NCBI GenBank assembly: GCA_000002445.1
Contig: CM000208.1
Coordinates: forward strand, 3,808,001 to 3,872,000
DNA from: Trypanosoma brucei
Taxonomy: Eukaryota
Length of the DNA stretch: 64,000 nucleotides
Direction: 5' to 3'
The notes beneath the pieces are model-generated. The model worked only from the letters and a program-made list of their open reading frames with translations, ran no database searches and was not told where the DNA came from. The translations under genes and the position numbers were made by a program. Within the stretch, counting starts at the first letter, position 1. Each line of letters begins with the position of its first letter. This document shows, in pieces, positions 53,713 through 64,000 of this stretch.

Positions 53713-54485
53713 GCAAAGGTATACTTAAGTGTGCAAGATGTGGAGGCGCACATCTTCATTCCCTCTCACCATTCATATTTTTATCCAGTTTGTTTGTGTG
53801 ATTCCTCTCCCACTATTTTTGTTATTCATTTTTTCTTTACGTATAATGTCACGTTTCTCCTTACTTACACATGTGGCGAAGAAGGGGAGAGCAGTATTTA
53901 CTTCATCGCTTTATCCGATACACGCATCTCATCTGAAGTTGTGCTAGGAAGACAGCAGCGGTGTCAGTGTCTGCACCGTAGTTTGTTTACATTTTTCGGG
54001 GCGCGGCAGAAAATGCGATTTGATCCCCTCCCGCACGCGCACGCCCAACGAAACATCCCAATCACTATAACATGTTTTACTTTGGTTTTCCTCTCATTTC
54101 AAAGAACCGGAGTGGGGAGAAAGGACTCCTCATCATATTTACTTAACCTTGTATTTTTCTTTACTCTGTATCCCATGGACACCTTTCTTCGCCACACCTT
54201 TCACCCTCCCTCTCTAGCAGACGTCTGGGCTCTACACCTCCCAATCGCACCGGGAGGTGCTTTTGCTCGTTCTCTTTAAATTCGATGCACATGTTTGTGT
54301 TTCTAATTCATTTGCTGCTGCACTGGGGAAGACTCGTCCCCTGTTTTGCTTCGATTGTCTCTTCCTCTTCACCGTCATTTGCATCGCGAGCTTGTTTCAC
54401 CTCTTCCACTGCAATTAACGTTACATTGGCGGCATATGATGTGACCGCCCAAATAGTTTGAACGCGCGCATCATAGGGAACCGCC

Positions 54486-56180
54486 ATGTGTACGTGCACC
54501 TGCTGTAACAAAGCAATACAATACTGCTGTTGTCGCACCTGTTCCCGCTGCTCAAAACCCCTCAACCGGCTACCACGAGGCCGTCATTGTAAAAGGTGTT
54601 GGCGTAGCGTGTGCTCAGCTTGCACGACTCGGTGCCGGTACGTCAATATGCTGGGGCCGCCTGAGGTAGTGTGTGATGGCTGCGCTGTCCCGCACAGCAT
54701 TGCATTCCTCAACGAGAGAAAGAGAGGCACCCCGTTGTGGGGGCTCTATGTCCTCTGGGGCGCAACGGATGCACCGGCGGTATGCGTTACGCCGTCATGT
54801 GGCACCTACGCTTATACGACCTTGTGCCGTGCCTGCGGCCTACCCACCGTTTCCTCCAGGGCCCATGTAACCCGTAGCGTCCACGACACTCGGAAACCTT
54901 CTCCCCAAGTGACGGACGAATTAAGGTTCCTCGATGTGAGAGAATACCATGATCGTGAGGCTGTCGTCAATGGGTACAGTAGCGCTGATGTAGAAGAGAC
55001 CTTTCGCTCATGCTTTCCCCGTGGGGAAGACGTTGCCGCTTTCCCCCATATTGGTAGCGCTTGTGAGGTACGGAACTTGTTGATGTCGCTGGTGGCTGCC
55101 GGCTTGGCTTACGAATACAACCGCGCGCCGAGTTTGACTCTCTCTCTCTCCGATTTTCCGTTTGCCTGTTTGCTGAAGTTGGTCCGCTATAACCGTCGCT
55201 ACACCGTTCTAGAAGCACCCGGGAAAGTTAAGTTCATCTCATTCCCGGGGACACATAATCCCGAAACAGTGGCCGTGAGTTTGCGTCTTTCTCACGTTAA
55301 GAGGCAACGGTGGTTTTTCCACAAGGAAGGCGAGGCAGGAGCCAGCGCCTGCGCATCCTCCACTGACGTAATTGGTGACTGTAATTCCCGACCAGGTCTC
55401 CACCAACAAGTTGGCGGGTTACCCCTCCACTACCGCGTCCACGCCGGCTTCATTCGCGAGGCAGAAAACCTGGTCCCACAGATGGAAGAATTTGTTGGGG
55501 AGGCCATTCACCACGGATACAGACTTGTGTTTTCGGGGCACTCCCTAGGCGGCGCAGTCGCCACCCTGGTGGCATTACAATTGCTGCAAACCCATCCCGA
55601 TCTCGCAAGGGACAGAGTCAGGTGCTTCACGTTTGGAGCCCCACTAGTTGGCGACCGTCAATTGACTGAGTTGGTGCAAAGGTTTGGTCTGACGCCTAAT
55701 TTTCACCACATTGTACATCAATTAGATATTGTTCCCCGACTATTATGCACGTATGAATGGTTGCGCGGCTGTGTAGACGAGCTGGCGGGAAGGGCCACCT
55801 TGCTTTTTAGCTCAGTGAAAAGTTGGGTGGGACGGTTCTCTAGCGGTGAGGTCGATGAAGGCGGACATAGCGAAGAGGCGGACACGATCGAGAGCCGAAT
55901 CAGGAATGGTGAAGGCGCAGTGAATGCGGAGAGCCCAGTTGAAGTAGAAGACGGTGATGAGCCGCATAGTTCAGCGAGTGGACCAAGGTATGCATGTTTT
56001 GGGAATTACCACTTCCTCAGCGACGACGGTACTAAGTTTTTCTCGACAGATAATCCCGAAGCGGCCTATCAAACGCTCAGAGGCAGTGGCAATGAAAAAG
56101 CGGCAGTGAGGAGTCACCGTGTCTTCGCGTACAACAGGGCCATATTCCTTCGTGTGTACACCAACGGACGATCCACCTAG
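54486..56180 (+). CDS. Class-3 (fungal-type) lipase domain protein with an N-terminal Cys-rich zinc-finger-like region.
   Basis: Nucleophile elbow VFSGHSLGGAVATLVALQL (GHSLG). Upstream Cys cluster CTCCNKAIQYCCCRTCSRCSKPL...HCKRCWRSVCSAC. Confidence 0.75.
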   Translation: MCTCTCCNKAIQYCCCRTCSRCSKPLNRLPRGRHCKRCWRSVCSACTTRCRYVNMLGPPEVVCDGCAVPHSIAFLNERKRGTPLWGLYVLWGATDAPAVCVTPSCGTYAYTTLCRACGLPTVSSRAHVTRSVHDTRKPSPQVTDELRFLDVREYHDREAVVNGYSSADVEETFRSCFPRGEDVAAFPHIGSACEVRNLLMSLVAAGLAYEYNRAPSLTLSLSDFPFACLLKLVRYNRRYTVLEAPGKVKFISFPGTHNPETVAVSLRLSHVKRQRWFFHKEGEAGASACASSTDVIGDCNSRPGLHQQVGGLPLHYRVHAGFIREAENLVPQMEEFVGEAIHHGYRLVFSGHSLGGAVATLVALQLLQTHPDLARDRVRCFTFGAPLVGDRQLTELVQRFGLTPNFHHIVHQLDIVPRLLCTYEWLRGCVDELAGRATLLFSSVKSWVGRFSSGEVDEGGHSEEADTIESRIRNGEGAVNAESPVEVEDGDEPHSSASGPRYACFGNYHFLSDDGTKFFSTDNPEAAYQTLRGSGNEKAAVRSHRVFAYNRAIFLRVYTNGRST

Positions 56181-57889
56181 GCCAGACGGGAATGAGCCGC
56201 GTCAACGAGGAGCAAATACCTTTTCCCGCATCCTCACCCCCCCCCCTCCCTTTCACAATTCAGAGTGAAGAAGTTGTGGGGTGGAGCGGGTACAAGGCAT
56301 ATGTTTTCGTGAAAAGTGGAGTGTTTAATTATCTGTTAGGAAGAGTCTTGGAATTGTATGGATGTGTCAAGAACTGGTGGAAATACAATTGAACTCCAGG
56401 AGGTGGTTTTCAGTATTCCGAAACACCCAGGAGGTAGTTTGGGTGCTCCACAACACCTGCATCGAAGCTGCCGACAGTGTCATAGGAAGATTAATTGGGG
56501 CTTTAACTCAGCCAAATCGCATCACAACGCCGTGGCAAACAAGGATTACGACAAATGTGGTGTTCTTAACTTTCCCTGTTCTCATTACGGACGGAGCTCC
56601 CCGCGCGGGAGCCCACAATGGAACGTTCTCCCGGAAAAAAAAAGTTTACATGTGTCCTGCCATTTAAAAGCCCTCCAGCGCGCGCGCATTTACCTCTGCT
56701 CGCTCCTATCGCCGTGGTACTGCTGCTTTATTTTAACACGCAGGGCTTAACGTACCACGCAAACACATCTTCTTTTGGGCGCTGAACGCGACAGGAGGAG
56801 AGTCGTTGCGCACGTTAAGGGGGAGGGGAGAATGAGGGGTGACAAACCTAATAGGAACTATGTTAGGAAGCAACACACTCCCACACGCTCGCATGGGCCG
56901 CCACGTGTGTCCACATTTTGGGGAGTCCAAATTGGAAAATTCCTCTTTATTACTCCCAAATCTAAGGGATGTATTACATTCTGCTGGTGAAGAAAAAAGG
57001 AAAATAAAAGTTTGTCACGCACTCTCTTCCTCAAGAAGTCCGGGTGTTGATAAGAGGACAACCGGCACTTTGAAAACCTATGCAAAGGCGGACGCTGATT
57101 GGCGTTGGTTTCTTAGGAGATAATGGCACCTTTAGGTGAGTACGTGGAGACCGCTCAAATGGAGGGGAAAGCAATTGTAATAACTATAGTCGAATTGAAA
57201 TGTTTGCAAGCATTTGTTCCCTATAGGATTGTATCCCTCGGTTCAGGTTTGCAACGGCCGTACAGTTATCTGCTGTATTAGTTTAACGTCACAAGCTTCT
57301 CAGGTGACATTTAACCAGGGTCAGAAAGACAAACTGCAGTCGTGTCTTCACAGGGTTCGAAGTAGGCACATCATCTGTCGAATTAAGGTCCTGTTAACAT
57401 GCAAATCTGAGGTATCTCATTTTTTGTATAGGGCATCCGAGCACCACATTCATATGTGTACGTGAATGGCGCGGTCACTCGAACAGCTGACCATCCTTTC
57501 TTTGCTACCGTGGAAATTACCACGGATTGGCTTGTGTGTCTTCTCGCGAGGGGACTTGCAGTATTTCTGCTGGTCGCTTACAGCTACCACGCAAATAGCG
57601 AACTAAACGGTCGGATTGAGGGCGAAGAATTAAGCCCCGCGTCACGACTTTGTGTTTCCCGCCTCTCTCTACATGGGATCACGACACTGCGCGGGCCACC
57701 CTCATACAGCGAAAGCGACTACTGTCAGAGCCTCCTCACAGCACAATTCACCACCAGACGTCATTTTGTTGCGTGACTCATGAACCTTCGGCGTCCACCC
57801 CACTGCCCCTTTGACCTACTCGATTAATCGGGGAGGCGTCGGTCGCATTTGACAGCAACACACCTCAGCTCATACGGAAGGGGGGAGCA

Positions 57890-58750
57890 GTGACTACCAT
57901 ACGTGAAGATGGGGAAGGTGTTGGTAAATACCTTCCGATAAGTGGGACCGTGTTTGTCATTGGCCTTTCCGTTCCAGATGTGAGGGAAATCGCGAGGAAA
58001 CTTGAAGAACGCAACGATTTGCGTGTTATTGTTCTCTTCGGGGAATTTTCATTACTGTATGATCTGTTTACCACGGCCCTCAACAACACCGCAGGCGCCG
58101 CACGTCTTGTGTTTGCCACCAGCTTGCCACATTGGGGTGATACTGAAACCTCATCGAAGACTGCTCAACTGTTCCATGATGTTGAAAAAGACTCACGATT
58201 GTGGACACCCCTATCACTTCTGGCATTCGCAACCGGTCGATTGATGCGGGTAATACTTCTTCATGTAGAAGAAATGAGTCCAGACACGTTGGTAAATTTC
58301 TTCTATGCCGATTCTTCCATCATCTCTGATGACATGCGCTACGGCGTATTCGACGACACAAAATGCGACACCGCGGAGAAACTTCCGAAGAATGATTGTG
58401 CCTCAAACTATGGCGCAACGCAGGTATCCGTGTGGTCTATGGCCCGTGCCCTCAACGCCTCCATTCCTCCACTTGCAGATTGCTTTTCTTCCACTTGTAT
58501 ATATATATATATATGTATATATCTTCATCCATTAAATTCTCTGCTACCGTTTAAGTTTGGGTTGAGGCGAAAATGCCTTGGAGGCGAGGTGTGGAAATCA
58601 TCCAGGCAAAGGGTTATACGGGGTTACCTTCCAGCGTGTCTGCCATCAGTGATCTGGGTAGTGAAGCGCGGGTTGCTGGTGTGTGTCCCCCGTTTCGTTA
58701 CTGAATACGTCATGTCAGTCTTTCGGGGTTACGCAGCGTGTAGGAGGTAG
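57890..58750 (+). pseudogene. Receptor-type adenylate cyclase gene fragment. It is homologous to about aa 645-830 of the downstream adenylate cyclase and lacks the signal peptide, TM segment and catalytic domain.
   Basis: VFVIGLSVPDV...LVFATSLPHWGDTE...TPLSLLAFATGRLMRVI...NYGATQVSVWSMARALNASIPPL parallels VYVIGLTAADPV...VLFATNLPHWADEIT...TPLSLLGFATAYFMRVI...NYGATQISVWSMARALNASIPPL in the 59126 gene. No ATG (GTG-initiated ORF). The ORF continues into a (TA)n tract and unrelated sequence. Confidence 0.7.
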
Positions 58751-59125
58751 GGGAGGAAGGCAACCCATAATGCACATGCGAAGAAGGTGAAGTGGTGTGG
58801 GAACATGTGTGCCGGCAAATGTCGTCAAGGGGCAAAATATTACAGGCATCGCCCACGGTCGATGAGACGCAAACTGGACCTTCAGTGTATGGGGAAAGTG
58901 ATTACAAAGTGGCTCATGGGCATCGATAGCTTGCTCGGAAGCACGGGTCACGGATGGTGGCGTGTGTTCAGTTTGTCTCGAAACCGTGCGGTGCGGTGAG
59001 TGCGGACTTTACTGCACATGCCGTAAGTACTGATACTCTCCTCAGTTCGCGTTCCTCTCCCCTACCAAATCCCTTCCCCCTTTTGTCTCCACACGAACAT
59101 AGTTTACTCGGTTAAACAGAAGACC

Positions 59126-62100
59126 ATGTGCGTTGGCACCCGTGCTGCTGGTTTTGGCGGCAGTGCCGCAGACACATCCATCGTAGTCGGTCCAGCACGG
59201 AGGAGATCCTACTGCGGCCGCGCCCTTGTTGGAGCGGCGCCGTTGCCAGTCTTACTGCTTCTGTTGCTGTCGGTAATGTGTGTGAAAGCCGATATAGAGA
59301 TCGAGGTTTTCTCTCTATTGCACCATCAGAAGATAGAGAAAAGGTTCGTTGAAGCGGTTAACGCTGGCTTCAACGCTTCCATGACCTCGCGCCGGTGGAA
59401 GACGGCACCCAGTGTGCACATCAAAGTCATGCATCCATTTACGCCCAGCGCGTCACCTGTTAGTGGCTTCCAACAGGCTGTGGAACGCAACAGGGGCAAA
59501 CTCTTCGTTGTAGTTGGACCCCTGGGCGATTTCGGCACCGTCTCGTCGCTCATTACACTACTGGCAGAACAGGATGTGGTCGCCTTCGCGCCCCTAACTG
59601 GATCAAGTGGGGGTCGTGGGTGGAACCCTAATCTATACTTCACGCGTGCTTCTCCATCCGCAGAGCTACTGGCGCTCATCCGATACGCGTTGGGCCGGCT
59701 ACGTACAATTCGATTGGGTTTCATGTACCTTCACAATGTCTTCTTCGGGGTGGAGGAATATGACGTCGCCCAGCGCATATTGCGTCGCATGGGTTATGGA
59801 TTTTGCGGTGTTTTCACTTTAAGTAGCTCACTGACCGGGGTTGCGAGCACCAGACACTTCGATTCCGCTTGGAATACGTTTGTGGAAAGTCGTCCACAGG
59901 CTGTGATTGTGTTCGCTCCCCCCGTGGGGGATACGGCAAGGTTCATACGAAACCTGGTTGCTGACAGTCGCACGAGAAGTGCGTACGTGCTTGTTCCGTC
60001 GATGCTCCAGTTTGCCATTGAGAACATGTGGCGCGAGGCGCTGGCCTTTGCCGATAGCCCATTTGTGGATGGGCAAGTTGTGGTAACGGGAACCAACCCA
60101 CTTGCAAGGGACACACAGTATCACGCTATCCGACGGTTTCAGAGAGACGTGAGGTCGTATCTAAAATCGAACCCGGGTGTAACGGTCTTCAATGCCTCGA
60201 GCAATTTCGATCACGATGACATAGATGGGCAGTTGTTGGTTTATGGATGGATCACTGGTGAGGTGTTAGCTCAGGCGTTGAGCGTGCCCGAGCGTCTGAC
60301 TGACAGAAAAACATTTATGCAATCGTTGTATGACCAGCGGCGATACGTAATTGATGACCTTGTGATTGGAGACTATGGTGGTGAGTGCGCTGGTTGGGCA
60401 GCCGGTCAGGGAGCAATGTGCTGGTGCAACCAGGGGGGGAACACGGTGCACGTAAGGGTGATCAGTAGAGGCTACCGGCTGCTGGATGCACCCGATGGAA
60501 TTATGATGTTTGACTCTTCTCACTGCTACCCTAGCGAGGTCGAAATGCAGGCTCCGTTCAATGGTGTGTCTGTTCTGATACCGGATAGACCAACCGCATT
60601 GCATGCTGCTGTAGAAATGGAAGAGGGCGCCTCTCTACTCGAAGTGAGGGAGCACAACCAAGACAGCAGGCTGTTTTTCGACACCATCGTCTCGCCTTTC
60701 AGCGGAGCCGCCGAGGAGTTGCAGCGGGAGTGGTCCACGAAGATCACCACGGCTGTGCTGGGTGTTGTGGATGAAGCAATGCTAAAAACACCCGGTGTCG
60801 CGTTCATTGACCCGGTGCCGCTCGCGCCGCGACTGAACAAAATGGAAAGGAATGTTATTCATCTCTCGCCAACCCTGGAACAGCAATTTTATGTGTGCAC
60901 GTCGTATCTTTCGAGGAACGACAAAAAACGTCTGCATATCGTTATCCGCAGTATCGATGCGGCCGCAATCGAGGATGTTCTGAAGAAAACCCTTGCGACG
61001 TTCAGTGTGGAACCGCAGTCAGTGGTAGTGCTGGACGGCAACGCCACGGTAGAGGGCCACCTGCCTGACAGTGGGGATGTTTACGTCATCGGCCTCACGG
61101 CAGCTGATCCCGTAGTGATTGCGGCCCATCTCAATAGTCATGATAGTGCTCGTGTGTTCGTTCCATTTTTCGATGTAGTACTGCTTCATGAAGAATTTTT
61201 TAACGCGTTCGAAGGCGTCTCGAGTGCTGATCGCGTCCTCTTCGCCACTAACCTACCACATTGGGCGGACGAGATCACAGCGTCAGAGGTTGTACAGAAA
61301 TTCTACACAGCGGAAAGAAATGCATCACGGCGAACGCCGCTCTCGCTTCTAGGATTTGCCACAGCGTATTTCATGCGGGTTATTATTTCCCCGATGAAGG
61401 CTATGAACGCAACTGCGCTTGTTGACTCCATTTTTGCTCAATCTGTAGTCAACGTCGGTGAGATGCGCTACGGCCCCTTCGCCGATGACGGTTGTTTTCT
61501 GAAAGGAGTGCCGCGTTTGACAGGTTGTGCCGTTAACTATGGCGCAACGCAGATATCCGTGTGGTCTATGGCCCGTGCCCTCAACGCCTCCATTCCTCCA
61601 CTTACAAATCCCATGACACCGTCAATGAGGTACTTGGACCCGGACGCCGGTAAACTTTCACGGGGACAACTTGCTGGCGTAATCGCCAGTTCCATTCTCG
61701 TCGCACTGCTTCTTGTGGCTCTGACTACGGTGCTGCTGCATGTCTCGCGACACAACACCCGTGATAACAACAGCGCGCCAAAGGAGCCCACAGAGCCTGT
61801 GACAATTGTTTTCACAGATATTGAAAGCAGCACGGCACAGTGGGCTGCCCACCCCGATGTCATGGCTGATGCTGTCGCCGCACACCACAAGTTGATCCGC
61901 GCGCTGATCTCCCAGTACGAGTGTTACGAGGTGAAGACCGTTGGGGACTCGTTCATGATCGCGAGCCGAAGTGCGTTTATGGCGGTGCAACTTGTGCGGG
62001 ATCTGCAGAGGGCGTTCCTTCGCCACGACTGGGGCGCGTCCGTGTTTGACGAGTATTATCGCAGTCTTGAGCAGGACCGTGCGTCAGAAAGTGAGGGATA

Positions 62101-62836
62101 CGTGCCGCCAACCGCACGCCTGGACCCCGACGTGTACCGAAAGTTGTGGAATGGCCTCCGAGTGCGAGTTGGTGTGCACACCGGATTGTGTGACATTCGC
62201 CACGATGAGGTGACAAAGGGTTACGACTACTATGGTCATACGTCGAACATGGCTGCCCGCACAGAGAGCGCTGCGAATGGTGGACAGATATTGCTGACAC
62301 GTGCAACATACCTTTCGCTAAGCACAGCAGAGCGTGAGCAACTTGACGTCACTGCGCTGGGCGCCGTCCCACTGCGTGGCGTTCCCGATCCGGTCGAAAT
62401 GTACCAAGTTGATGCTGTGGTCGGTCGGTCCTTCGCTGCACTGCGCCTCGACGGGGAAGTCGATCTGGTCGCTGAAAGTGAATTAGCTGTTTGCCACGCC
62501 AGTGACACCAGTTCAGCTACTACTGCCCTGGATGAATCATCGCAGATCATCACCAGCTGCTTTGAGACGCTGCTTGGCGCATTCACTCCTTCCAAGCGGC
62601 GAGACCTGCTGTTGCCTATCTGCGAGCGTTGGCGTGTGACGTTGCCACAGAAAACCAAGTCCGTGTGGGATGATAACGACTGTCAGGAGGTTATGCGGCG
62701 TATAGCAACAAAAGTGGGCCGTGTGGTGGACTTCCATGTTGTGGATGACGGCGGTTGCTCGACGGAAACAGTAAGCAGTGCATCGGTGATTATTATATCT
62801 AATCATGTGGAGGATTTCACCGCGCATCAAACTTAG
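59126..62836 (+). CDS. Receptor-type adenylate cyclase (trypanosome GRESAG4/ESAG4-like): signal peptide, large extracellular periplasmic-binding-protein-like region, single TM, class III cyclase catalytic domain.
   Basis: N-terminal hydrophobic signal LVGAAPLPVLLLLLLSVMCVKA. TM segment LAGVIASSILVALLLVALTTVLLHV. Catalytic core IVFTDIESSTAQWAAHPDVMADAVAAHHKLIRALISQYECYEVKTVGDSFMIASRS...RVRVGVHTG...GYDYYGHTSNMAARTESAANGGQILLT is the hallmark trypanosome adenylate cyclase sequence. Confidence 0.9.
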   Translation: MCVGTRAAGFGGSAADTSIVVGPARRRSYCGRALVGAAPLPVLLLLLLSVMCVKADIEIEVFSLLHHQKIEKRFVEAVNAGFNASMTSRRWKTAPSVHIKVMHPFTPSASPVSGFQQAVERNRGKLFVVVGPLGDFGTVSSLITLLAEQDVVAFAPLTGSSGGRGWNPNLYFTRASPSAELLALIRYALGRLRTIRLGFMYLHNVFFGVEEYDVAQRILRRMGYGFCGVFTLSSSLTGVASTRHFDSAWNTFVESRPQAVIVFAPPVGDTARFIRNLVADSRTRSAYVLVPSMLQFAIENMWREALAFADSPFVDGQVVVTGTNPLARDTQYHAIRRFQRDVRSYLKSNPGVTVFNASSNFDHDDIDGQLLVYGWITGEVLAQALSVPERLTDRKTFMQSLYDQRRYVIDDLVIGDYGGECAGWAAGQGAMCWCNQGGNTVHVRVISRGYRLLDAPDGIMMFDSSHCYPSEVEMQAPFNGVSVLIPDRPTALHAAVEMEEGASLLEVREHNQDSRLFFDTIVSPFSGAAEELQREWSTKITTAVLGVVDEAMLKTPGVAFIDPVPLAPRLNKMERNVIHLSPTLEQQFYVCTSYLSRNDKKRLHIVIRSIDAAAIEDVLKKTLATFSVEPQSVVVLDGNATVEGHLPDSGDVYVIGLTAADPVVIAAHLNSHDSARVFVPFFDVVLLHEEFFNAFEGVSSADRVLFATNLPHWADEITASEVVQKFYTAERNASRRTPLSLLGFATAYFMRVIISPMKAMNATALVDSIFAQSVVNVGEMRYGPFADDGCFLKGVPRLTGCAVNYGATQISVWSMARALNASIPPLTNPMTPSMRYLDPDAGKLSRGQLAGVIASSILVALLLVALTTVLLHVSRHNTRDNNSAPKEPTEPVTIVFTDIESSTAQWAAHPDVMADAVAAHHKLIRALISQYECYEVKTVGDSFMIASRSAFMAVQLVRDLQRAFLRHDWGASVFDEYYRSLEQDRASESEGYVPPTARLDPDVYRKLWNGLRVRVGVHTGLCDIRHDEVTKGYDYYGHTSNMAARTESAANGGQILLTRATYLSLSTAEREQLDVTALGAVPLRGVPDPVEMYQVDAVVGRSFAALRLDGEVDLVAESELAVCHASDTSSATTALDESSQIITSCFETLLGAFTPSKRRDLLLPICERWRVTLPQKTKSVWDDNDCQEVMRRIATKVGRVVDFHVVDDGGCSTETVSSASVIIISNHVEDFTAHQT

Positions 62837-62918
62837 CTGGTATGCTCTTCTGTGGGTACATGTGTGGCTTTCACTTCCCGTGTGGCAGTTCTTTTCTGAA
62901 CTCCGTTTTGCTGTCCTC

Positions 62919-62935
62919 TTTTTTTTTTTTTTTTT
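62919..62935. repeat. T17 homopolymer in the 3' flank of the adenylate cyclase gene.
   Basis: Read directly from the sequence. It is a plausible poly(Y) element governing polyadenylation and downstream trans-splicing. Confidence 0.8.
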
Positions 62936-64000
62936 GAGCATCTTTTTCTTTTAAATAGCGTGCGAATGCAATAAGCCGCGTCTATATACCACCCCTCCAT
63001 TTTGTTTGTCCCCTTCACGGTGCTTTCCGCGGTTAAGCATATAGTGTTTCTATCAGTCACCCTCTTTGTCTCTTAAGTATTTGTTTTTGTTTTTACTTCG
63101 CTCATACATTGGACCATTCATGGTGAAGCATTCTCAATTTATGTCGCCTTCACCATATTATCGATTCTTTTATGCTGTTCTGACAAATGTGTTCAGTTAA
63201 GCCGCAATCGGGTGTCTTGTTTGGATTACTTTATGTTACGCTACCTACGTGCATTTCTTCCTCCTGTTGCATGCGAGGCCATATGACGTTTATTGTGTTC
63301 CTTATTTTATTTTTATTTGTTTGCTGTTCTGCTGCTAAGCTGGTGTTATACGGCGCCCACGGTCCTTAGTTTGTAACTGCACGCGATTGTGCAGTGGATT
63401 CCGTGCTTTTGATTCAACTGCGGGCTGTCCCCTTGCCACTCCGGTGCGGCCGTGCCATGGTTGTGTATTTGATGTGTGGTTAGCTTGATGTAAAGCCCCT
63501 TCTCTGAACCTGGATTTTTCAATGTCGTTGCGCTCCCACTATTTTTATTGCTTAGCGTTTTATGTGTGTCTTTATCAACAACCACCTTGCAGCAAGTGTA
63601 GAATTGTTTAAATTACTTTGAGGGGGCCGGTATCGCCGACGTTGTAAGTCGGTACCCTGACATTATGCTGAACTCGCGGAGCTTTCAGCATATGTAGGCA
63701 GCATGGCTTCGGTACGTTGGTGAAGTAGCGTGCCTGAGTTGACACATCATCTGCTGATGTTAAGAAGCTTCCCACACTTGTTGAATCCGCCATGCTCGCC
63801 ACCAATCACGCGGCATCCACGGACCACTTGTTTGTGTGGAACGGGGCTTTCGGTTGAATACGTATCACAACGCAACTCGGGGTTTCACCAATCGCAACGC
63901 GGCCACCAAGAGCGTTGTAAGAAACCAAAGCAACAAGAGAACGACTCCCACTCTTGATATCCGAGAGGCGGCGCTGAGCCTTCGCGGGTCCTCCACAAGA

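What the first reader, a model, noticed from the sequence alone, without database searches (positions are those of the whole stretch)
57890..58750. An adenylate cyclase gene relic lies upstream of the intact adenylate cyclase, ending in a roughly 70-nt patch nearly identical to the full-length gene
The fragment is only about 40% identical in protein to the corresponding part of the downstream adenylate cyclase (aa 645-830), so it derives from a divergent paralogue. Its last 72 nt (58407-58478, NYGATQVSVWSMARALNASIPPL) match 61538-61609 of the intact gene with 3 mismatches. Just past the patch the fragment runs into (TA)n at 58499-58520 and junk sequence. This is the signature of a gene-conversion or illegitimate-recombination breakpoint within the family. 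Trypanosome receptor adenylate cyclases form a large, rapidly evolving family of genes and pseudogenes, and this locus appears to preserve a breakpoint in the act.
Basis: partly seen in the sequence, partly recalled or inferred. Interest (0 to 1): 0.5.

Follow-up and report, generated by a model that had tools for sequence, protein, structure and literature searches.

The report
Dead ESAG4-like cyclase fragment beside mosaic cyclase
A 583-base dead fragment of an ESAG4-like adenylate cyclase sits upstream of an intact Trypanosoma brucei cyclase gene, and its near-identical tail is the start of one of three stretches that the intact gene keeps almost identical to the ESAG4-like genes by gene conversion, which is an ordinary process in this gene family.

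Summary
Window 57898-58480 is an adenylate cyclase fragment that is 49% nt identical to the downstream cyclase (59126-62836). Its last 75-85 nt are 93-96% identical, with all 22 synonymous third positions the same.

The interpretation needs changing in three ways.
- The window is T. brucei TREU927 chromosome 10. The fragment is a faithful partial copy (codons 644-837; 98% aa, 97.8% nt) of an intact ESAG4-like cyclase about 40 kb downstream, probably ACP2/Tb927.10.16190. In T. b. gambiense it is already annotated "ESAG4 (fragment)".
- The patch is not peculiar to the fragment. The intact neighbour shares three near-identical tracts with both intact ESAG4-like genes: 61535-61629, 61756-62467 and 62619-62720, each 97-98% nt. 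The stretches between them are about 50% identical. The fragment is uniformly about 98% like its parent, patch included, so it simply carries the first 75 nt of tract 1 before it is truncated.
- TREU927-versus-gambiense differences in the intact cyclase cluster inside the tracts and mostly match the ESAG4-like paralogue, which indicates conversion since the subspecies split.

The truncation point (58480|58481) is a separate event, although it lies near a module boundary that recurs in the family. This is a known kind of feature and of modest interest.

The parts
57898..58480 (+). Pseudogene fragment (relic) of an ESAG4-like receptor adenylate cyclase. It corresponds to codons 644-837 of the parent, i.e. 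the C-terminal half of the membrane-proximal periplasmic-binding-protein-like domain. It is in frame and ungapped but has no start codon, TM segment or catalytic domain.
   Evidence: 583 nt ungapped: 97.8% to the gambiense chr10 ESAG4-like gene (L004 11929-12511) and 93.7% to the chr11 gene. 98% aa to TREU927 P0062. Partial PF25493 only. It is the only cyclase-like segment in intergenic 56181-59125.
58396..58480 (+). The 'patch': the last 85 nt of the relic (core 58406-58480), near-identical to 61525-61609 of the intact cyclase. It represents the first part of conversion tract 1.
58481..58522 (+). 3' truncation junction (58480|58481), followed by a pyrimidine-rich 17 nt and (TA)12.5 at 58498-58522. 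An imperfect 18-nt repeat of the relic end lies at 58484-58501 (14/18 matches).
   Evidence: Homology to the parent ends at 58480. TRF result. The flank is not significantly similar to the parent's 3'UTR once the TA run is excluded.
57890..58750 (+). Mechanical ORF that gave the finding its coordinates. It is not a gene: GTG start, and the last 270 nt are non-homologous read-through.
59126..62836 (+). Intact receptor-type adenylate cyclase (GRESAG4-type), identical to TREU927 EAN78957.1/XP_828069.1. It carries PF25495, PF25493 and PF00211.
61535..61629 (+). Conversion tract 1 (juxtamembrane, aa 804-835): 96.8% nt to both intact ESAG4-like genes. The looser edges are 61525-61639.
   Evidence: Other paralogues are 57-69% nt here.
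61756..62467 (+). Conversion tract 2 (cyclase catalytic domain, aa 877-1114): 98.3% nt to the chr10 ESAG4-like gene and 97.8% to the chr11 gene.
   Evidence: The family baseline is about 69% nt and about 75% aa.
62619..62720 (+). Conversion tract 3 (C-terminal tail, aa 1165-1199): 97% nt to the chr10 gene and 92% to the chr11 gene.
59036..59094 (+). Polypyrimidine tracts with AG dinucleotides just upstream of the cyclase ATG. This is the likely trans-splicing signal of the intact gene, which would place the relic outside its mRNA (inference).
   Evidence: sequence reading only.

Best explanation
The window is T. brucei brucei TREU927 chromosome 10, near its right end. Segment 57898-58480 is a non-functional internal fragment of the ESAG4-like cyclase lineage. 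Its closest relative is the intact ESAG4-like gene roughly 40 kb downstream on the same strand (P0062/EAN78976.1). By inference from the literature this gene is Tb927.10.16190 = ACP2, and its chr11 sister is Tb927.11.17040 = ACP1.

The relic predates the split of the T. brucei subspecies, because the same junctions occur in gambiense and the same 5' junction occurs in T. equiperdum. Its tail matches the neighbouring intact cyclase because that cyclase is a mosaic. Its sensor (extracellular) domain, TM segment and two linker stretches are anciently diverged from the ESAG4-like genes (about 50% nt). Three tracts are kept 97-98% identical to them by recurrent ectopic gene conversion among the three dispersed loci: the juxtamembrane patch, the catalytic domain and a C-terminal patch. 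The relic, a faithful copy of the ESAG4-like sequence, contains the first 75-85 nt of tract 1 and is then truncated.

Shown: the homologies, the tract boundaries, the homogenised synonymous sites, the lineage-specific sharing of variants, and the shared junctions.

Inferred: the recombination mechanism (homologous recombination or gene conversion, as is usual for trypanosome gene families), the gene names, and the relic's origin. On origin I slightly favour the view that the relic is what two deletions left of a once longer ESAG4-like copy, over capture of a 583-nt fragment at a repaired break. The relic has itself exchanged sequence with ESAG4-family genes since the subspecies split.
For: Organism and locus: the cyclase protein is identical to EAN78957.1. 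The gambiense orthologous locus is L001.

Parentage: the relic is 98% aa to P0062 and 88-91% aa to expression-site ESAG4s, but only 42-47% to all other paralogues. It is 97.8% nt, ungapped, to L004. The parent lies 19 protein accessions downstream in TREU927 and about 39 kb downstream in gambiense. Gambiense annotates the relic as 'ESAG4 (fragment), partial'.

Mosaic: sliding codon alignment, maximal segments, and an aa identity matrix giving 97-98% in the catalytic block only with the two ESAG4-like genes against about 75% for everything else.

Not selection: third positions are identical at 27/28 (tract 1) and 200/206 (tract 2) against the ESAG4-like gene, compared with about 40-50% against three other paralogues and the T. 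congolense homologue.

Conversion since the subspecies split:
- The 32 TREU927-vs-gambiense differences in the cyclase fall at 31.7/kb in tract 1 and 20.6/kb in tract 2, against 5.0/kb in the N-terminal domain and 0 between the tracts.
- At 14 of the 19 in-tract differences the gambiense cyclase carries the gambiense ESAG4-like nucleotide.
- Residues 977 and 980 co-vary within each genome.

Relic patch is native: mismatches to the parent are 2/85 in the patch vs 11/498 outside it.

Relic age: the 3' junction is shared with gambiense and the 5' junction with gambiense and T. equiperdum.

Relic also exchanges sequence: 9 of the 17 TREU927-vs-gambiense relic differences lie within 87 nt (57984-58070). 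Three of the four amino-acid changes there (K, F, A) are residues found in expression-site ESAG4s but in neither ESAG4-like gene; the fourth (A) is shared by two of the ESAG4s and the chr11 ESAG4-like gene.

Literature: ESAG4 plus two chromosome-internal ESAG4-like genes = ACP1/ACP2 (PMC4534343, PMC6027212). 21% of T. b. brucei receptor cyclases are truncated and fragments are prevalent (PMC7719234). Concerted evolution of trypanosomatid gene arrays, including cyclases, is described in PMC4413820.
Against: - The DNA of TREU927's own ESAG4-like genes could not be fetched, so nucleotide comparisons use the gambiense copies. Within-genome donor/acceptor relations in TREU927 rest on protein only.
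- The direction of transfer for tract 1 is unresolved. The two T. congolense homologues are equally similar to it (24/33 aa each, counted by hand from the alignment).
- The T. congolense 'orthologue' is not shown to be syntenic.
- The relic's end lies inside the 95-nt tract 1. If breakpoints fell at random along a 3.7-kb gene this would have a chance of about 3%, which hints at a mechanistic link that the main explanation treats as coincidence or a hot zone.
- The gambiense assembly shows a longer version of the relic before a 100-N gap. I read this as unmerged contigs, but it differs at 3 of 213 nt from the assembled parent, so a real longer allele or copy is not excluded.
Confidence: 0.84

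Rival explanations
1. One reading: the patch was created by a direct exchange (gene conversion or illegitimate recombination) between the relic and the adjacent cyclase 3.1 kb away, and the relic's truncated end is the preserved breakpoint of that event.
For: - The two are close together and on the same strand.
- The relic ends inside tract 1, close to the point where ESAG4, ESAG4-like and this cyclase all switch C-terminal modules.
- One synonymous site co-varies within genomes: 58453/61582 is C/C in TREU927 and G/G in gambiense.
- The relic demonstrably takes part in conversion elsewhere, in the 57984-58070 cluster.
Against: - Both intact ESAG4-like genes carry the same patch, and it extends about 20 nt beyond the relic's end.
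- The relic shows no identity step relative to its parent.
- At aa 810 the TREU927 cyclase has Ile, like the chr11 gene, whereas the relic and the chr10 gene have Val. The relic is therefore not the best donor for the present state.
- The junctions are fixed across subspecies.
Confidence: 0.12
2. There was no recombination: the patch is a functionally constrained juxtamembrane motif (NYGAT.ISVWSMAR.L) conserved by purifying selection.
For: The motif is conserved at the protein level across the whole family and across species.
Against: - Synonymous third positions are identical at 22/22 (relic vs cyclase) and 27/28 (ESAG4-like vs cyclase). Against three other T. brucei paralogues that encode much the same motif they are identical at only 4/19 to 13/27.
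- The boundaries are sharp.
- Variants are shared among paralogues within a subspecies.
Confidence: 0.02
3. The relic or its patch is an assembly artefact: reads from the ESAG4-like gene or from the cyclase were collapsed into the intergenic region.
For: Assemblies do confuse these sequences. Gambiense has overlapping contigs around a 100-N gap. T. equiperdum has a 10-N join between the relic's 5' junction and a piece of the parent gene.
Against: - The 5' flank/relic junction is identical in three independent assemblies.
- The relic/TA-flank junction is identical in two assemblies.
- The relic carries substitutions absent from the available ESAG4-like gene sequences. At 58285 and 58385 both the TREU927 and the gambiense relic differ from both gambiense ESAG4-like genes. 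58345, 58375 and 58391 are unique to the TREU927 relic.
Confidence: 0.02

Closest known systems
ESAG4-like (ESAG4L) receptor adenylate cyclases ACP1 (Tb927.11.17040) and ACP2 (Tb927.10.16190) of T. brucei
   Same: The relic is 98% aa and 97.8% nt identical to the chr10 member over codons 644-837, and 88-91% aa to expression-site ESAG4s. It is chromosome-internal, like ESAG4L.
   Different: It covers only 194 of about 1254 codons and has no start codon, signal sequence, TM segment or catalytic domain, so it cannot make a cyclase. The gene-ID assignment is my inference from chromosome, similarity to ESAG4, and reviews PMC4534343 and PMC6027212.
Truncated or fragmentary receptor-cyclase pseudogenes of salivarian trypanosomes (Durante et al. 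2020, PMC7719234)
   Same: It is an isolated fragment retaining part of the periplasmic-binding-protein-like domain and lying next to an intact family member. That paper reports 21% of T. b. brucei receptor cyclases as truncated and suggests rapid rearrangement.
   Different: Here the parent gene, both junctions, and the relation of the fragment's end to a conversion tract are defined at nucleotide level.
Concerted evolution / ectopic gene conversion in trypanosomatid multigene families (Jackson 2007; review PMC4413820; T. b. gambiense genome paper PMC2854126)
   Same: Within-species homogenisation of parts of paralogues, sharp tract boundaries, and variants shared among paralogues.
   Different: The partners are not a tandem array but three dispersed loci, two about 35-40 kb apart on chr10 and one on chr11. 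Homogenisation is confined to three discrete tracts, while the sensor domain and the TM segment stay about 50% identical.
Mosaic formation from pseudogene donors in VSG switching
   Same: Short segmental conversions occur between diverged family members, and a pseudogene takes part in the exchange.
   Different: There is no evidence that the relic donates to an expressed gene, and there is no link to antigenic variation or to an expression site.

Membership tests
Trypanosome receptor-type adenylate cyclase (ESAG4/GRESAG4 family), functional member | Two extracellular periplasmic-binding-protein-like domains (PF25495 + PF25493) | tested here: not met
   The relic matches only PF25493 profile positions 165-363 of 373 and has no PF25495. 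The neighbouring intact gene has both.
Trypanosome receptor-type adenylate cyclase (ESAG4/GRESAG4 family), functional member | Single TM segment followed by a class III cyclase catalytic domain (PF00211) | tested here: not met
   The relic's homology stops at parent codon 837, before the TM segment. The intact gene has a hydrophobic stretch around aa 846-868 and PF00211 at aa 886-1095.
ESAG4 / ESAG4-like subfamily (by descent) | Sensor-domain sequence groups with ESAG4 rather than with other GRESAG4 clades | tested here: met
   98% aa to P0062, 91% to P0063, 88-91% to ESAG4 P0007-9. The next best is 62% (a T. congolense ESAG4-like protein), and all others are 52% or lower.
ESAG4 proper (expression-site associated) | Located in a telomeric VSG expression site | tested here: not met
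   The relic lies in a housekeeping polycistron (cation efflux, TBP-like, RMD1-like and lipase genes upstream) on chr10, about 60-70 kb from the end of the gambiense chromosome record.
Gene-conversion tract | Abrupt step in nucleotide identity, with homogenised synonymous sites | tested here: met
   49% rising to 93% nt; third positions 21/58 rising to 22/22. Maximal segments.
Gene-conversion tract | Phylogenetic incongruence between the tract and its flanks, and paralogues more alike within a lineage than orthologues are | tested here: met
   Catalytic tract 97-98% aa to the ESAG4-like genes, against 42-44% in the sensor domain. Ortholog differences are concentrated in the tracts and mostly match the same-genome paralogue.
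Processed (retro-)pseudogene | Poly(A) tail, spliced-leader remnant, target-site duplication | tested here: not met
   It is an internal gene fragment. There is no A-run at the 3' junction, and no flanking direct repeat of 5 nt or more was found within 60 nt of the two junctions.

The most novel reading that the evidence does not exclude
The roughly 95-nt juxtamembrane tract acts as a recombination joint, where trypanosome receptor cyclases swap sensor modules against TM/catalytic modules. On this reading ESAG4, the ESAG4-like genes and this cyclase all change partners within a few codons of it. The relic would be the preserved by-product of an aborted or half-completed exchange at that joint, between the ESAG4-like gene and the neighbouring cyclase. 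The relic would then still serve as a local donor or acceptor in the conversion network.
Probability: 0.15. Interest if true: 0.5.

Novelty: new member of a known kind. Interest (0 to 1): 0.28.

Why it matters
Practical consequences:
- The intact cyclase at 59126-62836 shares a catalytic domain that is 98-100% identical in nucleotides with ACP1 and ACP2. RNAi fragments, probes, antibodies, peptides or short reads taken from aa 877-1114 cannot tell the three genes apart.
- The relic adds a fourth near-identical target for reagents designed on ACP2 codons 644-837.
- The relic and its parent also mislead assemblers, as the gambiense and T. equiperdum scaffolds show.

Evolutionary point: the locus gives a clean, nucleotide-resolved example of modular concerted evolution. 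The enzymatic core is homogenised among dispersed loci on two chromosomes, while the ligand-binding domain and the TM segment diverge freely. This fits the idea that the family diversifies what it senses rather than what it does. None of this overturns current understanding.

Tried and rejected
- Searching the big protein database with the fragment alone found nothing, although proteins 90-98% identical to it are in that database. This was a word-index miss. Searches with the full cyclase and with ESAG4 worked.
- Exact look-ups of TREU927 proteins failed, and ESAG4 P0007 has no DNA on record. Nucleotide work on the ESAG4-like genes therefore used gambiense.
- I first thought the T. congolense homologues showed that tract 1 in the cyclase was ESAG4-derived. 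A residue count gives 24/33 for both homologues, so I withdrew any claim about direction.
- I tested whether the relic's 3' flank is the parent's 3'UTR, which would indicate an internal deletion. Both have a TA run, but beyond it the local alignment score is no better than shuffles (34 of 300 shuffles reach it). Rejected as unsupported.
- I looked for further cyclase remnants in intergenic 56181-59125 with a family HMM on six-frame translations. There were none.
- I looked for an 'empty site' or synteny in T. congolense. The contig with the best homologue has no lipase or RMD1-like gene upstream.
- I looked for flanking target-site duplications or microhomology. Nothing of 5 nt or more was found. 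There is only an imperfect 18-nt repeat at the 3' junction.
- Rfam found nothing in 54000-64000.
- I considered the gambiense 'two-copy' relic as a real tandem duplication or a longer allele. I judged it more likely to be unmerged contigs: a 523-nt overlap at 99.6%, a low-quality contig start, and a tail 98.6% identical to the parent. This is not excluded.
- Searching the literature for the intact cyclase's gene ID, by guessing neighbouring IDs, found nothing.

Full report
**1. What is at the coordinates**

The stretch 57890-58750 is listed as a 286-aa ORF with a GTG start. Only 57898-58480 is homologous to anything.
- tblastn of the downstream cyclase protein (59126-62836, 1236 aa) hits 57908-58507 at 44.6% identity over aa 637-837.
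- A family HMM run on six-frame translations of the whole intergenic region 56181-59125 finds this one segment and nothing else.
- Pfam sees only the C-terminal part of PF25493 (profile positions 165-363 of 373). The intact gene has PF25495, PF25493 and PF00211.
- Beyond 58480 the reading frame runs through a pyrimidine-rich 17 nt, (TA)12.5 at 58498-58522 and unrelated sequence.

**2. The patch is real**

At a constant offset of 3129 nt the relic and the cyclase are about 49% identical, until 58396. From 58396 to 58480 they are 79/85 identical, and the core 58406-58480 has 3 mismatches in 75 nt.

In a codon alignment the upstream part has 244/498 identical nucleotides and 21/58 identical synonymous third positions. 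The patch has 78/84 and 22/22. Fisher p is 1e-15 for nucleotides and 6e-8 for synonymous positions.

The partner coordinates are shifted by 2 nt: the correct partner of 58407-58478 is 61536-61607.

**3. Where the window comes from and what the relic is**

The cyclase protein is identical to T. b. brucei TREU927 EAN78957.1 and 99% identical to a T. b. gambiense DAL972 chr10 protein.

The relic protein is 98% identical to P0062 (TREU927 EAN78976.1, annotated 'ESAG4, putative', on the same chromosome). It is 91% identical to the chr11 sister P0063 and 88-91% identical to bona fide expression-site ESAG4s. It is 62% or less to everything else, and only 47% to the neighbouring cyclase.

At the DNA level 57898-58480 aligns without gaps to codons 644-837 of the gambiense chr10 gene at 97.8%, and to the chr11 gene at 93.7%.

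The parent lies 19 protein accessions downstream in TREU927. In gambiense it starts about 35 kb beyond the cyclase's stop codon, on the same strand.

Reviews state that the ESAG4 subfamily comprises ESAG4 plus two chromosome-internal ESAG4-like genes, ACP1 (Tb927.11.17040) and ACP2 (Tb927.10.16190) (PMC4534343, PMC6027212). I infer that P0062 is ACP2 and that P0085/P0063 is ACP1.

Gambiense already annotates the relic as 'ESAG4 (fragment), partial', CBH16850.1.

**4. The patch belongs to the intact genes, not to the relic**

The cyclase was aligned by codon with the intact gambiense ESAG4-like genes.

| Region of the cyclase | Window coordinates | nt identity to ESAG4-like genes |
|---|---|---|
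| aa 1-795 (sensor domain) | 59126-61510 | 40-65% |
| Tract 1 (juxtamembrane) | 61535-61629 | 96.8% |
| TM region | between tracts 1 and 2 | about 50% |
| Tract 2 (catalytic domain, 712 nt) | 61756-62467 | 98.3% |
| Linker | between tracts 2 and 3 | about 45-58% |
| Tract 3 (C-terminal tail) | 62619-62720 | 97% |
| Remaining tail | after 62720 | divergent |

Third positions of identical codons match at 27/28 in tract 1 and 200/206 in tract 2. Three other gambiense paralogues and the T. congolense homologue show 57-72% nt and roughly 40-50% third-position identity in the same tracts. This rules out family-wide nucleotide constraint.

At the protein level the catalytic tract is 97-98% identical only among this cyclase and the two ESAG4-like genes, against about 75% for every other family member, expression-site ESAG4s included.

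The relic differs from its parent lineage uniformly: 2/85 mismatches in the patch and 11/498 outside it. Its patch is therefore simply ESAG4-like sequence. The relic contains the first 75-85 nt of tract 1 and then stops. In the intact genes the tract continues for about 20 more nucleotides, through ...TNPMTPSM.

**5. Conversion has continued since the subspecies split**

The TREU927 and gambiense orthologues of the cyclase differ at 32 positions. The densities are:
- 31.7 per kb in tract 1
- 20.6 per kb in tract 2
- 5.0 per kb in the sensor domain
- 0 in the inter-tract stretches

At 14 of the 19 in-tract differences the gambiense cyclase carries the nucleotide of the gambiense chr10 ESAG4-like gene. 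Residues 977 and 980 are Y and S in both the TREU927 cyclase and TREU927 ACP2-like protein, and C and R in both gambiense proteins. Other sites follow the chr11 gene. This is the pattern expected from repeated exchange among three loci.

The same modular behaviour appears elsewhere in the family.
- The T. congolense pair is 83% identical in the catalytic domain, against 71-73% across species.
- A gambiense expression-site ESAG4 shares a near-identical catalytic core with an unrelated GRESAG4.
- ESAG4 and the ESAG4-like genes share the sensor module up to about aa 840 and then diverge.

**6. The relic's own history**

The junctions are sharp. The 5' junction is 57897|57898 and the 3' junction is 58480|58481. 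The flanks show no similarity to the parent's flanks beyond a TA run. There is no retroposition signature.

The 5' junction is shared by gambiense and by T. equiperdum OVI. The 3' junction with the TA run is shared by gambiense. The relic is therefore older than the T. brucei subspecies.

The TREU927 and gambiense relics differ at 17 sites. Nine of these lie in 57984-58070, and three of the four amino-acid changes there (K, F, A) are residues found in expression-site ESAG4s but in neither ESAG4-like gene. The relic has thus itself been a partner in conversion since the split.

Whether it began as a complete gene copy later trimmed by two deletions, or as a captured 583-nt fragment, cannot be decided here.

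**7. Assembly caveats**

In the gambiense record the relic is represented twice around a 100-N gap. The first copy reads on into 213 nt of TM and cyclase sequence that is 98.6% identical to the chr10 ESAG4-like gene. The second copy starts inside the relic, with a 1-nt deletion at its very start, and ends as in TREU927. The 523-nt overlap is 99.6% identical. I read this as two unmerged contigs with stray parent-gene reads, but a genuinely longer allele is not excluded.

The T. equiperdum scaffold joins the relic's 5' junction, across 10 N, to a piece carrying the parent gene's upstream context. This is the same kind of confusion.

**8. Verdict**

Gene conversion is indeed the cause of the identity step, but the exchange is between the intact cyclase and the ESAG4-like lineage as a whole, in three tracts. 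The relic's truncation is a separate, old event.

The truncation point falls inside tract 1, next to a boundary where family members recurrently switch C-terminal modules. That leaves a modest probability (about 0.15) that the relic is a by-product of recombination at that joint.

Truncated cyclase genes and concerted evolution are both documented for trypanosomes (PMC7719234, PMC4413820, PMC2854126), and the relic is already annotated in gambiense. This is therefore a well-resolved new example of a known kind. Its main practical value is for reagent specificity and read mapping among this cyclase, ACP1 and ACP2.

Noticed in passing
window 61756-62467 and 62619-62720: Outside the finding's coordinates, the intact cyclase shares a 712-nt catalytic-domain tract (98.3% nt) and a 102-nt C-terminal tract (97%) with the two ESAG4-like genes (ACP1/ACP2-type). 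The stretches between the tracts are about 50% identical. Reagents or reads from these tracts cannot distinguish the three genes.
   Followed up: yes
L001 8003-9361 (T. b. gambiense FN554973.1): The relic is represented twice around a 100-N gap. Copy 1 continues for 213 nt into TM and cyclase sequence that is 98.6% identical to the chr10 ESAG4-like gene. Copy 2 is truncated as in TREU927. These are probably unmerged contigs, but a real longer allele is possible.
   Followed up: partly
L008 14750-15171 (T. equiperdum OVI CZPT02000608.1): The scaffold has the same relic 5' junction as the window. It is then joined, across 10 N, to a piece carrying the parent gene's upstream context. This looks like a mis-scaffold caused by the similarity between relic and parent.
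   Followed up: partly
window 57984-58070: Nine of the 17 differences between the TREU927 and gambiense relics cluster in these 87 nt. Three of the four gambiense amino-acid changes there (K, F, A) are residues seen in expression-site ESAG4 proteins but in neither ESAG4-like gene. This suggests a conversion tract inside the pseudogene.
   Followed up: partly
window 58463-58501: There is an imperfect 18-nt direct repeat across the 3' truncation junction: ATTCCTCCACTTGCAGAT and TTTCTTCCACTTGTATAT, 14/18 matches. Its meaning for the junction mechanism is unknown.
   Followed up: no
proteins P0002/P0014 (T. congolense) and P0009/P0017 (T. brucei): The catalytic domains of otherwise divergent paralogues are more alike within a species than across species (83% vs 71-73%). 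An expression-site ESAG4 shares a near-identical catalytic core with an unrelated GRESAG4. Modular homogenisation therefore looks general in the family.
   Followed up: partly
window 59036-59121: Strong polypyrimidine tracts and AG dinucleotides lie immediately upstream of the cyclase ATG. The relic is therefore probably outside the cyclase mRNA, in the 3'UTR or spacer of the upstream lipase gene (54486-56180). The intergenic region is unusually long, at 2.9 kb.
   Followed up: no
(tool behaviour): The word-indexed protein search with the 199-aa fragment returned no hits, although proteins 90-98% identical to it (P0062, P0082, P0007) are in that database. A negative result from that tool on a short query is not reliable.
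   Followed up: yes
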